From positions 2,624,001 through 2,688,000 of the forward strand of contig CM000153.2 of NCBI GenBank assembly GCA_000004695.1: 64,000 nt of DNA. The letters run 5' to 3'. Origin of the DNA: Dictyostelium discoideum (taxonomy: Eukaryota). Made by a program: the position numbers and the translations under genes. Numbering within the stretch: the first letter of the stretch is position 1; the number at the start of each line of letters is the position of its first letter. Of this stretch, positions 7,798 through 25,720 are shown piece after piece. The notes beneath the pieces were generated by a model. It was not told the DNA's origin, did not search any database, and worked only from the letters and a program-made list of their open reading frames with translations.

Positions 7798-10700
7798 TTA
7801 ATTATTTTTTAAGATTAATAATGAATCAGTTTGATCTTCACCTTCATCATTAATTGATAAGATTGGTTTTGGAGTATCTTTACTTTTAGTTCTAATTTTT
7901 GTAGTTGGAGGATTTGTAGTTTGTAAACCAGTTGGGAAAATCTTTTTACTAATATGATGAATACAAATTGCAATTGGAATTAAAGCACCAATACCACTTA
8001 GAGATAAGACCACACCACTTATGATATCGGTCGAATTAAAACTACGAGTATTGACAATGATACCAGTTAAACATAGGATAAGCGATAAGTAAACTTCCAT
8101 ATCATTTTTATATTGAGATTTATAAGGTTGACAAATCCATGTTAAAAAGGTGAAAAGTAAACCCAATGTTGAGATTGCCAAACCCTTGATATACATATAA
8201 TTGAATGCAAAGATAAAAGTTACCAAAATGTAAAGAATACTTCTTAACAAAAGAATTAAATCCCACCATTGGAAATAGGGTCTATACTTGTCAAAGAAAA
8301 TCTTTAAAAAGTAACGATTCTTCTTTCTAATTTGAATGAAAATATAGATTGGTACACCTAATGAAACCACTATAATTATTATACAAGCCACAATAAACAT
8401 TGCCAAATGTTTTGGTGTAAAGCATTGGACCGATGGGTCCAAACTGAGGTAAAAGCCATCGCCAATCTTTGTACAACTAATCAATGCCAATGAAATGTAA
8501 GTAACTGGTGTATAGAAACAAAGTAGGAAACTGATTACAGAGTAAAATAAATTTCTATCAAAGAATTCAATTACGAAAACTTTCAAATGAGGGAATAAAC
8601 GGATGATTAAATCTCTGAACCAAGAAATTCGGATTGATAATGGTGTAATGATGAATAGCATTCCAATTAGGGCGATTAATTGTTTCCAAATGTAGGTTAT
8701 AGTTGGATCTAAACAAGTTTGAGGCCAATAATCAATATCCAATCCAAATAATGGCATGATTGTTAGATATTGAATATTATAACCAAAGACAGCAACGATT
8801 TGTACAATCAATAGATAATTGAAAATAATGGATGCTGATGGAACTGAGAATGTACTCATTACGAGAATGAATAGAATTACGAAAACCACCATACCTGAGA
8901 GGATTCCAAAGTTAAATCCATCACATTCTTGACAAAACATTTTCACTTTTGAATAACCTTGATCGCACACTGAACATAATACACCACCTTGACCCTCTCT
9001 ACAAGTTCTTGTTAAACAATAGGCAGGATCACATGGATAAATATCTGGTGGTTTATTATCTTCAAGTAGAATCCAATAGCCACTTTGTGGATAAATTACA
9101 GATTTACCCGGACAAATTGCTTTATTAATATCACATTTTATACAAGTGACACCATCATAACCATATTGACCAATTGGACATGGTGTACAATTTTGATTGG
9201 AACCAATCTCATAACCAATATCACATGGTGATAATACTATTGTTGTATTGATATGATAATCTTTAGTTTGACCTTCCAATAAAGCGGTTGCACTTATTCC
9301 AAATTGTGTATATAATGTATAGTTTACAGTTACATCGACTTCAATTAAACCTTGATATTCTGAATCCATTGAAGTTTTAAAAACTATTTCATTATTTTGT
9401 AAATTATAAATTTCCAATGTATAATTTGCCAAGAAATCCAAGAATGGCATACTTTGATTATAAAAATCAAATAGGGATAAACCAATTGTGAAAGGAGTAA
9501 ATGGATGAGTACCACCAACTATTGGAAGGAAACCAAAATAACTAATTGATGAGGCATATATATCACCATAGGTTGCGACATTTTCTTCGAATATCGAACT
9601 TGAATCATTGATACAACCAGCTCTTAATTCTGAATAACAAACACCACCAGGACCGAAATCTGCTGTATTTTTACTAAATTTACTATTGGTAATATTAACT
9701 TGAGGAAAGTATGGTGAATCTGAACCAGCAACCATAAAATTATTTTCTAAATAGAAAACACCACCACGGTGAGATGCATTATTATTAAAGAATGATGAAT
9801 CTATAACGGTTATGTTGGTTAAATAATCTAAAACATAGAAACATGAGCCACATCCATTCTGTGAAAAATCACTACCATCATAGGAAGCACTATTATTTGC
9901 AAAGTAACATTGATCAATGAGAACATCACTTTCAAATATTGAAAAAACACCACCAGCAACAGCTGAATTACTATTAAATGATGAATCTAGTATAACTAAG
10001 GAACTAAGTTGAGAATTTATACAACTTCCATTATTTGATGAGATATTATCATTCCAAGTTACATTATGAGCCACTACATAAGAATTAACACTCATAGCAA
10101 ATGAATCCACAAATGAATTACTTTCAAATATTGAATCGTTGAGGAACATAATCGAATTGAAACATGAGATAACCGTGTAACCATCATTGTTATAAATATT
10201 TGATTCTCTAAGTGACATATTTGAACCACCATCTAAATCGAATAAATTTTTTGGAAAGTAATTATGACTTGCATAAAATAACTCTATGAAAACAGTACCA
10301 TTTGAAACGAAGTAATTGGCTTCATTATATTGATGAGTGATGTTACAAAATGAGATATTTGAATCGATCATTTTAAATAGATTTCCTTCGATGTAATAAT
10401 TGTAAATTACAATACTATTTTCAAAGAGTGCATTAGTTTGGAAAGCATCAACACCATTACCATTACTTTGGCAATAACGAATGATTGAGCTATTAAAGTA
10501 AAGAAATTCTTGATTTGAACTCTTTAGAATACTTGTGTCCAATGAGGATAAGGAATCGAATATACAATTATTGAATACAGTTTTACCACCTTCAAAAGTC
10601 ATCATTAAATTTGCTGCTGCATTGTTTGTAAATATACAACCATCAAATTTAATTAAAGAATCTGTGTAAAGACCCAATGTATTATTGAGTGATGAGATAT

Positions 10701-24205: not shown

Positions 24206-25720
24206 ATGAAAATTAAAATATTATTGATTTTAATATTAAATTTAATATTTTTAAATTCGGTTGTAAATTCGCAATATGCTAGAAATTATTATGTTGCAAC
24301 CAATGGTACAGATTTTAATTCTTGTGGACAAGCAATATCACAAGCATGTGCAACACCAGTTGGTGCAGTGAATTCATTTAGAATTCAATTTGGTTATTAT
24401 TCAAGTAATGTTTATCAATTGTTAGTAAACTTTGGAAGTGGATATCAATGGAATGGTGGAAATTCATTAACATCAGTCTCTCTCAACAATTTAAATGTTA
24501 GCTTTATCGGTGCACCAGATGGATCTACATACTTTTATAATAGTTATTCCGCTTTACCATTATTTAATATAACAAGTGCAGCAACTCAAACAACCTATAT
24601 CACCTTCACCAATATTACTTATGGTACACCAAATTTTGGTTGTTATCATAATTATCAATATAATACACTCGCCGCATCATTATTATTAATTACACCAGCT
24701 TATTATTATTCAGTAAATAACTATATCCTATTCAATAATTTTACCATTAGTTGTAAAACCATTGACATCCCAATTGTGGCTACCAATGGTTATGGTTATA
24801 CTTATTTAGGACCAGCCTCAGAAGATTATAATGATTATTTCACTGGTTCCCTTTCATCCTATAACCCAAACACTTTCATAACATTCAATGGCATGTATTT
24901 CAACCAAACAGCAGCCTATTCGAAAGCTGGATATACTTTTTCATTCAGTTCACAACTTGTAAACGTTCCATTATTCCCAACAAGTGTTTCATTTGTAAAT
25001 TGTGTTTTGATTTTGGATGATGTTAATTTCTTATCAACTCAATCATTTATCAATGTTGGTCGTGGTAATTTAATCATTGATAATTCCACTTTCATCGTTT
25101 CATCATTTTCTAGCAATCCCCCACCATTCTTGAATGTTACATCTGCTCAAGTCGATATCACCAATTCAAATATAATAACCGAAGGTTATATGATTAGCTT
25201 CTTATCATGTCAAGGTTGTTTCTTTAAAGCTGACAATATCAACTATACTTCATTAAGTATAACAAGCTCCTCCGTACCATTTAGTTTCATGTATGCTTCT
25301 GCCTCTTTCTATAATTCTCGTTTAATTTCCTCTCAATACGGCGGTGTCATTAGTGCCGTTGATTCTCAACTCGCCTTAAGATCCAATATAATTTCTTCTG
25401 GAAAAACAAATTCTGTCAATCTTGATAAATCCAACGCATTCATTTATGGAAATACTTTCCCCTATTATTACAAGGTAAATTCATTATATTACAATTCATA
25501 TTCAACTGTAGTCTATTGTTCCTCTGATTCTGAATCTGATATCGTCGGTGATTTTTTAGTTGGTTCTTACACTGAAAATTGTTCAAAATATACTAAAGAC
25601 TTTAAATTAAAATGGTATTTTGGTTTCCTTGCTGTTGGTATTGTTGGTACACTTTTTATTTACATTTTCCTTGCTTCAACAATTGCTATAATTAAAAGAT
25701 GTGGAGGTGGTGATAATTAA
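24206..25720 (+). CDS. Type I membrane glycoprotein (504 aa) with a beta-helix-like ectodomain; paralogue of 20494..22026
   Basis: Signal peptide MKIKILLILILNLIFLNSVVNSQ, near-identical to that of the divergent neighbour. YYVATNGTDFNSCGQAISQACATPVGAVNSF cap motif; numerous N-glycosylation sites; C-terminal TM FGFLAVGIVGTLFIYIFLASTIAII. Confidence 0.6.
   Translation: MKIKILLILILNLIFLNSVVNSQYARNYYVATNGTDFNSCGQAISQACATPVGAVNSFRIQFGYYSSNVYQLLVNFGSGYQWNGGNSLTSVSLNNLNVSFIGAPDGSTYFYNSYSALPLFNITSAATQTTYITFTNITYGTPNFGCYHNYQYNTLAASLLLITPAYYYSVNNYILFNNFTISCKTIDIPIVATNGYGYTYLGPASEDYNDYFTGSLSSYNPNTFITFNGMYFNQTAAYSKAGYTFSFSSQLVNVPLFPTSVSFVNCVLILDDVNFLSTQSFINVGRGNLIIDNSTFIVSSFSSNPPPFLNVTSAQVDITNSNIITEGYMISFLSCQGCFFKADNINYTSLSITSSSVPFSFMYASASFYNSRLISSQYGGVISAVDSQLALRSNIISSGKTNSVNLDKSNAFIYGNTFPYYYKVNSLYYNSYSTVVYCSSDSESDIVGDFLVGSYTENCSKYTKDFKLKWYFGFLAVGIVGTLFIYIFLASTIAIIKRCGGGDN

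What the first reader, a model, noticed from the sequence alone, without database searches (positions are those of the whole stretch)
7798..25720. Cluster of four paralogous beta-helix surface-protein genes: two giant multi-TM genes in a divergent pair, and two ~505-aa single-TM genes in a divergent pair flanking an SDR gene
Gene 7798-13863(-) and gene 14616-19148(+) share a domain order: signal peptide, parallel beta-helix rungs (repeated GGV/GGI...NS.F.N units and a YVSN.G.D....P..SIQQAI cap), a Cys-rich ephrin-receptor/EGF-like module, 8-9 TM helices and a tail. They are transcribed away from each other from a 750-bp spacer. Ten kb to the right, 20494-22026(-) and 24206-25720(+) form a second divergent pair. 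They have near-identical signal peptides (MKIKYLIILIINLIFLNSIVNSQ and MKIKILLILILNLIFLNSVVNSQ), the same cap motif, heavy N-glycosylation and a single TM. This looks like a locally amplified family of glycosylated adhesin- or receptor-like proteins. Their combination of a bacterial-type beta-helix with a multi-pass C-terminal module is unusual.
Basis: partly seen in the sequence, partly recalled or inferred. Interest (0 to 1): 0.7.

Follow-up and report, generated by a model that had tools for sequence, protein, structure and literature searches.

The report
Two old pairs of beta-helix membrane proteins
This Dictyostelium discoideum locus holds two separate, ancient gene pairs that both display a beta-helix outside the cell: two giant proteins that join it to a highly conserved nine-helix membrane module also found in ciliates and a malawimonad, and two small single-pass proteins found only in close Dictyostelium relatives; all are uncharacterised.

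Summary

"Four paralogs" is not supported. A~B are homologous (99.8%) and C~D are homologous (99.9%), but A/B versus C/D is not significant (19% at best). Neither pair is a recent amplification. The layout is conserved in five other Dictyostelium genomes, and each duplication predates the group-4 radiation.

The beta-helix plus multi-pass combination is not unique. The same architecture occurs in ciliates, a malawimonad and uncultured eukaryotes, with no literature found.

The TM bundle is the constrained core (dN/dS about 0.07, against 0.3-0.5 for the helix). One relative's bundle reaches the Pfam cutoff for the fungal Flc/Pkd2 "TRP" family, which also has nine helices. That link is a lead, not a demonstrated relationship.

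C and D form a family restricted to group-4 Dictyostelium, with fast-evolving ectodomains.

The parts
7798..13863 (-). Gene A (my model, 1931 aa): exon 1 13863-12678, intron 12677-12408, exon 2 12407-7798. Signal peptide, S/Q-rich N-terminal domain, long beta-helix, Cys-rich module, multi-pass bundle, tail.
   Evidence: Canonical GTAAGT...TAG splice, in frame, single stop. Single genes of 1840-1906 aa are called over the same span in five other genomes. The exact product is not in the public collection.
9514..12396 (-). A: cap (IYVSNKGNDY...CSIQMAI) plus beta-helix region, about aa 400-1360. GGx rungs at aa 1214, 1277 and 1316.
   Evidence: Homology to B's modelled helix and motif census. dN/dS 0.25-0.46.
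8914..9228 (-). A: Cys-rich module (13 Cys), aa 1456-1560.
   Evidence: Weak DUF7630 (E 0.007) and TNFR_ELAPOR1 (0.037) hits. Aligned with B. Cys count.
7954..8910 (-). A: multi-pass TM bundle, aa about 1562-1880.
   Evidence: BLASTP to B's bundle at 2e-30. Seven hydropathy peaks at a strict threshold. dN/dS 0.09-0.14.
13864..14615 (.). 752-bp AT-rich spacer between the divergently transcribed A and B.
   Evidence: Sequence. The head-to-head arrangement is conserved in five other Dictyostelium genomes.
14616..19148 (+). Gene B = DDB_G0284913 (Q54NY8), 1468 aa: exon 1 14616-14766, intron 14767-14892, exon 2 14893-19148.
   Evidence: The spliced product exactly matches the deposited protein.
15426..17081 (+). 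B: cap (VYVSNQGSD...PFSSIQQAI) plus right-handed beta-helix, aa 229-780. Three Pmp-type GG rungs at aa 701, 727 and 754 (about 16824-17081).
17166..17462 (+). B: beta-sandwich linker domain, aa 809-907.
   Evidence: AF2 strands at model residues 595-693. Foldseek local match to the SoxYZ Ig-like fold.
17469..17783 (+). B: Cys-rich ephrin-receptor/TNFR-like module (13 Cys), aa 910-1014.
   Evidence: Family profile hits ELAPOR1 at 8.6e-5 and EphB2 at 0.014. DUF7630 E 0.016. About 12 Cys columns are invariant or nearly invariant across 17 relatives.
17799..18803 (+). B: nine-helix TM bundle, aa 1020-1354, N-terminus outside and C-terminus inside. Conserved loop motif KLGVFYLKY..KLYFWD..LLLKR, and QPF...DNNLE.
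   Evidence: AF2 helices. Positive-inside rule and outward-facing loop Cys. 60% identity to the Polysphondylium ortholog against 30% for the helix. dN/dS 0.06-0.07.
18804..19145 (+). B: acidic, Ser-rich, low-confidence cytoplasmic tail, aa 1355-1468.
   Evidence: Low pLDDT and composition.
20494..22026 (-). Gene C = DDB_G0284917 (Q54NY6), 510 aa, single exon. Signal peptide (22026-21958), beta-helix ectodomain, TM (20614-20670), tail with conserved DTHTYTP.
24206..25720 (+). Gene D = DDB_G0284921 (Q54NY4), 504 aa, single exon. Signal peptide (24206-24274), ectodomain homologous to C, TM (25619-25675), short invariant tail.
   Evidence: hhalign C~D 99.9% over 443 columns. TM plus tail dN = 0 in two comparisons.

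Best explanation
The locus holds two distinct, anciently duplicated pairs of membrane proteins.

(1) A and B belong to an undescribed, patchily distributed eukaryotic family. The order is signal peptide, variable N-terminal domain, long right-handed beta-helix ending in three Pmp-type GGx/FxxN rungs, beta-sandwich, 13-Cys ephrin-receptor/TNFR-like stalk (DUF7630-like), nine-helix bundle with N-terminus outside and C-terminus inside, and a disordered acidic cytoplasmic tail.

Shown: the architecture, the homology between A and B, the distribution of the family, and the pattern of constraint. The ectodomain diverges fast and has no invariant charged residue. The bundle is as constrained as the neighbouring enzymes and holds all six invariant charged residues.

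Inferred mechanism: the beta-helix is a non-catalytic binding or load-bearing surface for glycans, matrix, prey or other cells. The rigid disulfide stalk couples it to the bundle. The bundle is the working part, a signal-transducing or ion-conducting module, possibly a distant relative of the fungal Flc/Pkd2 'TRP' (PF06011) nine-helix channels that respond to membrane stretch.

(2) C and D form a small family confined to group-4 Dictyostelium. They are type I proteins with a beta-helix ectodomain, one TM and a short conserved tail. They are most likely surface binding or adhesion proteins, and the near-invariant TM and tail of D suggest contacts within the membrane.

The two pairs share a fold class but no demonstrable recent ancestry.
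For: - A~B homology: BLASTP 2e-30 and hhalign 99.8%.
- C~D homology: hhalign 99.9% over the full length.
- Pmp link: the family profile reaches PF13229/PF02415 proteins, and 5 of 17 relatives hit Chlam_PMP.
- Cys-rich module: profile hits ELAPOR1 at 8.6e-5 and EphB2 at 0.014.
- Same layout elsewhere: Stylonychia, Halteria, Gefionella and metagenomic eukaryotes.
- Topology: nine helices, positive-inside rule obeyed, loop cysteines outside.
- Constraint: bundle 95/90/71/60% identity against helix 78/67/36/30%. dN/dS is 0.06-0.07 for B's bundle, 0.31-0.53 for B's helix, 0.39-0.57 for C/D ectodomains and 0.04-0.17 for the neighbouring enzymes.
- TRP lead: P0016's bundle scores 28.6 bits against the PF06011 cutoff of 28.5, E 8.4e-7. 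The D. purpureum B ortholog hits the same model co-linearly at E 0.2.
- Fission-yeast Pkd2 has a signal peptide, an ectodomain, a nine-helix TMD and a disordered tail (bioRxiv 10.1101/2022.08.11.503631), and its calcium permeability is activated by membrane stretching (PMC9727806).
- Age: synteny in five other Dictyostelium genomes and trees.
- C/D restriction: only 5 hits among 1.84 billion representatives, all group-4 Dictyostelium.
Against: - No experimental data exist for any of these genes. None of the gene IDs searched (B, C, D and the guessed ID for A) appears in the main text of the searched literature.
- A and B themselves give no PF06011 hit at E <= 1. Only 1 of 12 bundles is significant.
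- The PF06011 hit on P0016 disappears when the full-length protein is scanned.
- I could not model the bundle alone or compare it by fold with Pkd2/Flc.
- The C model has only moderate confidence (pLDDT 62), and the sequence-periodicity check was underpowered.
- Localisation at the plasma membrane is assumed from the signal peptide and topology, not shown.
- The top structural neighbours of the ectodomains are mostly enzymes (lyases, depolymerases), so a catalytic role is not excluded.
Confidence: 0.6

Rival explanations
1. One reading: all four genes are paralogs of one family, amplified locally by tandem or inverted duplication, with C/D being short forms of A/B.
For: All four have the same fold class. 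A cap-like YV(S/A)xxGxD...C...I motif is present in A, B, D and in C orthologs. Physical linkage is conserved across group-4 species. The richest profiles give a weak signal above control: 19% probability and E 0.0012, against E 0.62 for the reversed control.
Against: There is no significant BLASTP or hhalign link. The exhaustive C/D-profile search finds no A/B-type or Pmp-type protein. C and D lack GGx/FxxN rungs. Beta-helix rung patterns produce weak repeat-like matches between unrelated helices. A and B differ from each other about as much as from a malawimonad protein, so any common origin with C/D would be very old and not a local amplification.
Confidence: 0.15
2. The ectodomains are membrane-tethered carbohydrate-active enzymes (polysaccharide lyase, hydrolase or epimerase) acting on matrix, cellulose sheath or bacterial polysaccharides. 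The membrane parts only anchor them.
Against: No invariant charged residue exists in 651 ectodomain positions of the A/B alignment. Only about four exist in C/D. Adhesins and autotransporter passengers (PfbA, Vag8, pertactin) score about as high. The ectodomains evolve at dN/dS 0.3-0.57, which is atypical of active sites. For A/B the bundle is far too conserved to be a simple anchor.
Confidence: 0.12
3. The nine-helix bundle of A/B is a new membrane fold unrelated to Flc/Pkd2 (for example a transporter, a scramblase-like module or a receptor core). The PF06011 hit is a composition-driven false positive.
For: Only one of 12 bundles reaches significance, and only at the cutoff. The hit vanishes when the full-length protein is scanned. 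The TM-only profile finds nothing in the PDB. The defining TRP_N/ML-like ectodomain is absent.
Against: PF06011 is the only Pfam family hit by more than one bundle, and the two hits are co-linear. The number of helices, the orientation, the ectodomain-bundle-disordered-tail order and the bundle size (about 335-360 aa against 405 aa) all match Pkd2 (bioRxiv 10.1101/2022.08.11.503631).
Confidence: 0.4
4. The A/B ectodomain was acquired from bacteria by horizontal transfer of a Pmp or 'choice-of-anchor Q' type beta-helix gene and then fused to a eukaryotic membrane module.
For: The GGx/FxxN rungs match bacterial proteins carrying PF02415/PF13229 at E down to about 1e-27. Trichomonad Pmps are discussed as possible prokaryotic acquisitions (PMC6701047).
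Against: The complete architecture is shared by Amoebozoa, ciliates and a malawimonad. Any transfer would therefore be ancient and not specific to this locus. The genes have dictyostelid base composition and introns. No bacterial hit covers more than about 17% of the query.
Confidence: 0.2

Closest known systems
Chlamydial polymorphic membrane proteins (Pmp; Pfam PF02415 repeats)
   Same: Right-handed beta-helix whose coils carry GGA(I/L/V) and FxxN motifs (PMC11166332, PMC10715098). A and B have three such rungs, and their family profile reaches PF02415 proteins.
   Different: Pmps are bacterial type V autotransporters with a C-terminal beta-barrel. A and B have a Cys-rich stalk and a nine-helix alpha bundle instead, and far fewer GG/FxxN rungs. 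A and B give no direct Chlam_PMP hit.
Trichomonad Pmp-like surface proteins (TvPmp)
   Same: Eukaryotic proteins with a Pmp-type ectodomain that have lost the autotransporter barrel and are held by alpha-helical TM segments. They are implicated in adherence (PMC6701047; bioRxiv 10.1101/454884).
   Different: TvPmps have one TM, an ATPITK motif and NPx[YWF] tails. A-D lack those motifs. A and B are nine-pass. C and D are single-pass but lack GGA/FxxN enrichment.
Fungal FLC / Pkd2 'TRP' family (Pfam PF06011 with TRP_N PF14558)
   Same: Signal peptide, extracellular N-terminal domain, a membrane domain of about 400 aa with nine helices, and a disordered cytoplasmic tail (bioRxiv 10.1101/2022.08.11.503631). 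One A/B-family bundle reaches the PF06011 cutoff and a dictyostelid ortholog hits co-linearly.
   Different: The family is described as fungal-specific, with an ML-like/Ig-like ectodomain (PMC9600462). A and B have a giant beta-helix plus Cys-rich stalk instead and do not hit PF06011 themselves.
Pectin-lyase-like right-handed beta-helix proteins (tailspikes, PL6 lyases, PfbA, pertactin/Vag8 passengers)
   Different: Sequence identity is 8-16%. No catalytic signature is conserved. Those proteins are soluble, phage-borne, wall-anchored or autotransported, not integral polytopic eukaryotic proteins.
Tetrahymena 3634-aa 'Transmembrane protein, putative' (PDB 7W5Z chain U2) and ciliate relatives (Stylonychia, Halteria)
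   Same: True sequence relatives. The family profile matches at E 9.6e-49, from the Pmp rungs through the Cys-rich module into the first TM helices. Ciliate members carry Chlam_PMP plus DUF7630 plus a C-terminal TM cluster.
   Different: They are much longer, with extra Cys-rich repeats. The PDB entry is a mitochondrial complex IV dimer whose subunits were assigned from density-derived sequence (PMC10227065). The B model does not retrieve that chain by Foldseek, and the TM-only profile does not hit it, so it gives no structural or functional information here.

Membership tests
Right-handed parallel beta-helix (pectin lyase-like) superfamily | Three-stranded right-handed beta-helix fold | tested here: met
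Right-handed parallel beta-helix (pectin lyase-like) superfamily | Sequence match to Pfam Beta_helix PF13229 or PbH1-type models | tested here: not met
   No hit at E <= 1 for A-D or for D. purpureum C/D members. Only relatives found with the A/B profile carry PF13229.
Chlamydial Pmp autotransporters | Repeated GGA(I/L/V) and FxxN tetrapeptides / Pfam PF02415 | tested here: inconclusive
   A has 5 and B has 3 GGx motifs (about 1 expected), and FxxN counts are 21 and 16 against 12.5 and 9.1 expected. There is no direct PF02415 hit in A or B, but 5 of 17 family members hit, best 5.6e-8. C and D show no enrichment.
Chlamydial Pmp autotransporters | C-terminal autotransporter beta-barrel | tested here: not met
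   The C-terminus is an alpha-helical nine-TM bundle (A/B) or a single TM helix (C/D). There is no autotransporter Pfam hit.
Trichomonad Pmp-like proteins | Pmp repeats plus a single C-terminal TM, an ATPITK motif and an NPx[YWF] tail (PMC6701047) | tested here: not met
   ATPITK and NPx[YFW] are absent from A-D. A and B are multi-pass. C and D are single-pass without Pmp repeats.
Fungal FLC/Pkd2 TRP-like family | TRP domain PF06011 at or above the gathering score | tested here: inconclusive
   Not met by A or B (no hit at E <= 1). Relative P0016's bundle scores 28.6 bits against the 28.5 cutoff, E 8.4e-7. The D. purpureum B ortholog gives E 0.2, co-linear. The hit is lost in full-length scans.
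Fungal FLC/Pkd2 TRP-like family | N-terminal ML-like/Ig-like TRP_N domain (PF14558) | tested here: not met
   No PF14558 hit. The ectodomain is a beta-helix plus Cys-rich stalk.
Fungal FLC/Pkd2 TRP-like family | Nine TM helices, extracellular N-terminus, disordered cytoplasmic C-tail | tested here: met
   AF2 helices plus the positive-inside rule for B, compared with the published Pkd2 prediction (bioRxiv 10.1101/2022.08.11.503631). Both sides are predictions.
Fungal FLC/Pkd2 TRP-like family | Calcium permeability or mechanosensitivity | not testable with these tools
   Requires reconstitution or imaging, as done for Pkd2 (PMC9727806).
Ephrin-receptor-like / TNFR-type Cys-rich modules (PF07699, PF00020, DUF7630 PF24633) | Pfam hit at or above the cutoff with a conserved Cys pattern | tested here: inconclusive
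   All hits are below the cutoff: DUF7630 at E 0.007-0.016 in A and B, Ephrin_rec_like at 0.004-0.007 in relatives, DUF7630 at 3.9e-5 in Stylonychia. The family profile hits ELAPOR1 at 8.6e-5 and EphB2 at 0.014. There are 13 Cys in each module.

The most novel reading that the evidence does not exclude
A and B represent an ancient eukaryotic class of 'adhesion-channel' proteins. In this class a Flc/Pkd2-type nine-helix bundle, so far considered fungal-specific, is fused to a giant Pmp-type beta-helix through a disulfide-rich stalk, so that binding or mechanical pull on the helix gates ion flux. This would be functionally analogous to polycystin-1/2. The syntenic single-pass beta-helix proteins C and D, with their near-invariant TM segments, would be auxiliary subunits of these complexes.
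Probability: 0.15. Interest if true: 0.75.

Novelty: new variant of a known kind. Interest (0 to 1): 0.45.

Why it matters
Dictyostelium is a model for phagocytosis, adhesion, mechanosensing and self-recognition, yet these four conserved membrane proteins have no assigned function. The A/B architecture defines an undescribed family spread across distant eukaryotic supergroups. Its membrane module is as constrained as a housekeeping enzyme.

If the bundle is truly related to fungal Flc/Pkd2 channels, that family would no longer be fungal-specific. It would also offer a genetically tractable system in which a large extracellular binding domain is hard-wired to a channel-like core.

The work also corrects the picture of a single amplified family. 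It shows that Pmp-type beta-helices in eukaryotes are not confined to trichomonad single-pass adhesins.

Tried and rejected
- Direct Pfam and NCBIfam scans of A-D gave nothing significant.
- phmmer of A and B against PDB sequences gave nothing. The dictyostelid-only profile A2, the C/D profile A1 and the TM-only profile A4 also gave nothing against the PDB.
- The afdb50 library was unavailable.
- Hydrophobic periodicity as a model-free test of rungs was underpowered even for the positive control.
- Upstream DNA comparison of C and D gave only A/T low-complexity matches.
- Gene conversion as the cause of the shared signal peptide was rejected. The peptide is conserved in both ortholog sets across species, and third-position identity is uninformative with AT-biased codons.
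- Hyper-polymorphism of the tgr type was rejected. dS between AX4 and the other D. discoideum assembly is similar for all genes, and no region reaches dN/dS of 1; the highest is B's N-terminal domain at 0.93 in the closest comparison.
- The partial gene at the end of the Polysphondylium contig is not C/D-like.
- The exact look-up of P0005 failed. The exact look-up of my A model failed.
- Literature searches for the gene IDs and for DUF7630 returned nothing.
- PDB 7W5Z chain U2 was considered as a structural template or functional clue and set aside. It sits in a mitochondrial complex IV entry, with subunits assigned from density-derived sequence.

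
Full report
**Identity of the window and gene models**

The window is extremely AT-rich, with GC of 12-34%. Exact look-ups show it is Dictyostelium discoideum AX4. 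B is DDB_G0284913 (Q54NY8), C is DDB_G0284917 (Q54NY6) and D is DDB_G0284921 (Q54NY4). All three are annotated only as hypothetical or transmembrane proteins.

I rebuilt the genes from the sequence:
- A = complement join(13863..12678, 12407..7798), 1931 aa.
- B = join(14616..14766, 14893..19148), 1468 aa.
- C = complement 22026..20494, 510 aa.
- D = 24206..25720, 504 aa.

B's product is identical to the deposited protein. My A model uses a canonical GTAAGT...TAG intron and is in frame, but it is not identical to any deposited product. Its exact boundaries are therefore mine. Gene callers in five other genomes give one gene of 1840-1906 aa over the same span.

A and B are head-to-head across 752 bp. 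A class II aldolase gene lies between B and C, and an SDR gene lies between C and D.

**Are the four genes paralogs?**

C-D gives 1.3e-5. No A/B versus C/D pair scores better than 0.01.
- With ortholog-based profiles, A~B is 99.8% (695 columns) and C~D is 99.9% over the full length. The best cross-pair value is 9%.
- With the richest profiles I could build, the cross-pair value rises only to 19% (E 0.0012). The reversed-sequence control gives E 0.62.
- An exhaustive HMMER search of 1.84 billion representatives with the C/D profile returned five proteins. All are C/D-type and all come from group-4 Dictyostelium.
- tblastn finds no further members in the window.

The locus therefore holds two pairs, not one four-member family.

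**Age of the duplications**

The order A(-) B(+) aldolase(-) C(-) SDR(-) D(+) is conserved in D. firmibasis, D. citrinum, D. dimigraforme and a second D. discoideum lineage. D. purpureum keeps A(-)/B(+), the aldolase, one C/D-type gene and an SDR. In Polysphondylium violaceum a B ortholog sits next to an SDR gene.

In a bootstrapped NJ tree of the Cys-rich plus TM module, the A and B clades each get 100% support. The Polysphondylium protein falls inside B, and A+B together get 63%. In the C/D tree, C groups with D. purpureum P0042 (90%) and D with P0043 (69%). Both duplications therefore predate the group-4 radiation, and A/B predates the Dictyostelium-Polysphondylium split. This is not a recent local amplification.

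**Ectodomains**

Pfam and NCBIfam find nothing significant in A-D.

GGx motifs are enriched only in A and B. B has three consecutive rungs about 26 residues apart at aa 701, 727 and 754. The A/B family profile reaches many proteins with PF13229 and PF02415. Five of 17 family members hit Chlam_PMP directly. C and D show no such enrichment. Their N-glycosylation sequon counts equal the compositional expectation.

A model-free periodicity test was underpowered.

**Stalk and membrane module of A/B**

After the helix comes a beta-sandwich and then a module with 13 cysteines. This module gives sub-threshold hits to DUF7630, Ephrin_rec_like and TNFR models. The family profile matches ELAPOR1 at 8.6e-5 and EphB2 at 0.014.

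The model then shows nine helices. The predicted inside loops carry at least 11 K+R against 2 in the outside loops, and all three loop cysteines face outward. This fits an N-out, C-in topology followed by an acidic, low-confidence tail.

**Distribution**

The profile search found proteins with the same overall layout in Stylonychia, Halteria, the malawimonad Gefionella and several uncultured eukaryotes. The shared layout is a signal peptide, a long ectodomain with Pmp repeats, DUF7630, and a C-terminal cluster of six to eight hydrophobic segments. The conserved columns are the GG/FxxN rungs, about 12 cysteines, and bundle motifs such as K.YG.LY..Y+...(F/Y)YW(D/E)..L.R+ and QP(F/Y)...N.LE.

The family profile also matches PDB 7W5Z chain U2, a 3634-aa Tetrahymena "Transmembrane protein, putative", at 9.6e-49. 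That entry is the mitochondrial complex IV dimer, and its subunits were assigned from density-derived sequences (PMC10227065). The B model does not retrieve the chain by Foldseek, and the TM-only profile does not hit it. I treat it as a sequence relative only.

No paper in the library mentions the gene IDs searched or DUF7630.

**Where the constraint lies**

Among B orthologs, identity to AX4 for D. citrinum, D. firmibasis, D. purpureum and P. violaceum is 95/90/71/60% in the bundle and 78/67/36/30% in the helix. All six invariant charged residues of the A/B alignment lie in the bundle, and none lies in the 756 ectodomain and stalk positions.

NG86 dN/dS against three genomes:

| Region | dN/dS |
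|---|---|
| B bundle | 0.06-0.07 |
| A bundle | 0.09-0.14 |
| Neighbouring aldolase and SDR | 0.04-0.17 |
| A/B helices | 0.25-0.53 |
| C/D ectodomains | 0.39-0.57 |

dS is similar across all genes, so there is no gene-specific hyper-polymorphism. D's TM plus tail has dN = 0 in two comparisons. C's tail keeps an invariant DTHTYTP motif.

The pattern is fast-evolving, non-catalytic-looking ectodomains attached to strongly constrained membrane parts.

**What the bundle might be**

PF06011 ("TRP", the fungal Flc/Pkd2 family) is the only Pfam family hit by more than one isolated bundle. P0016 scores 28.6 bits against the 28.5 cutoff, E 8.4e-7. The D. purpureum B ortholog hits co-linearly at E 0.2. 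A and B themselves do not hit, and the P0016 hit is lost when the full-length protein is scanned.

Published work describes S. pombe Pkd2 as a signal peptide, an extracellular Ig-like domain, a 405-aa domain of nine helices and a disordered tail (bioRxiv 10.1101/2022.08.11.503631). Membrane stretching activates its calcium permeability (PMC9727806). The FLC family is described as fungal-specific (PMC9600462).

The topology match is striking, but the sequence link is marginal. I put the chance of true homology at roughly one half.

**Interpretation**

A and B are best read as surface sensor or adhesion proteins. A variable beta-helix is wired through a rigid disulfide stalk to a conserved nine-helix working module that may be channel-like. 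C and D are lineage-restricted type I beta-helix proteins, probably binding or adhesion molecules.

The closest published eukaryotic analogues of the ectodomain are the trichomonad Pmp-like adhesins. These have one TM, an ATPITK motif and NPx[YWF] tails (PMC6701047), all of which are absent here.

**Verdict**

The "four paralogs, locally amplified, unusual combination" interpretation is only partly right. The genes are already annotated, but the family is uncharacterised. I rate it a new variant of a known kind (beta-helix surface proteins) with moderate interest. Interest would rise if the Flc/Pkd2 link is confirmed.

Noticed in passing
window 21958-22026 (-) and 24206-24274 (+): The C and D signal peptides are 19/23 aa and 60/69 nt identical. 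The next 51 nt are only 21/51 identical, and the proteins as a whole (signal peptide included) are 27.7% identical. The peptide (MKIK.LI.L..NLIFLNS.VNSQ) is kept in both ortholog sets across most of the D. discoideum clade (the called D. firmibasis C product starts differently), which suggests long-term constraint on the signal peptide itself.
   Followed up: partly
window 12408-12677: The intron of gene A consists almost entirely of an (AAT/ATT)n microsatellite of about 210 bp. The ORF finder reads it as a long poly-Ile tail.
   Followed up: no
window 12678-13863 (-): Exon 1 of A carries a run of about 30 Ser and a run of about 35 Gln inside its N-terminal domain. Only the last ~20 residues of this domain, together with the adjoining cap (A 380-425), align with B (B 219-263).
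   Followed up: no
window 19291-20175 (-): A class II aldolase/adducin-domain gene with one intron lies between B and C. It is conserved at this position in all five other Dictyostelium genomes examined.
   Followed up: partly
window 22442-23215 (-); L005 5576-6707: A short-chain dehydrogenase gene lies between C and D. An SDR also sits directly beside the B ortholog in Polysphondylium violaceum and near it in D. purpureum. The B-SDR linkage may therefore be older than the C/D genes.
   Followed up: partly
window 25920-27401 (-): A cytochrome P450 gene lies just right of D (PF00067 in orthologs). It evolves fairly fast, with dN/dS 0.23-0.33.
   Followed up: no
PDB 7W5Z chain U2 (not in window): A 3634-aa Tetrahymena protein of this beta-helix plus Cys-rich family is listed as a chain of the mitochondrial complex IV dimer. 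This is an odd place for such a protein and may reflect an assignment from a short density-derived sequence.
   Followed up: partly
L003 versus window, whole cluster: The assembly labelled D. discoideum ACTFIW differs from AX4 by dS of about 0.03-0.13 in every gene of the cluster. It is a clearly diverged lineage and not a near-identical strain.
   Followed up: partly
window 25580-25717 (+): D's juxtamembrane, TM and tail sequence (ENCSKYTKDFKLKWYFGFLAVGIVGTLFIYIFLASTIAIIKRCGGGD) is almost invariant across four species, while its ectodomain is only 50-70% identical in three of them. This hints at a specific partner within the membrane.
   Followed up: partly
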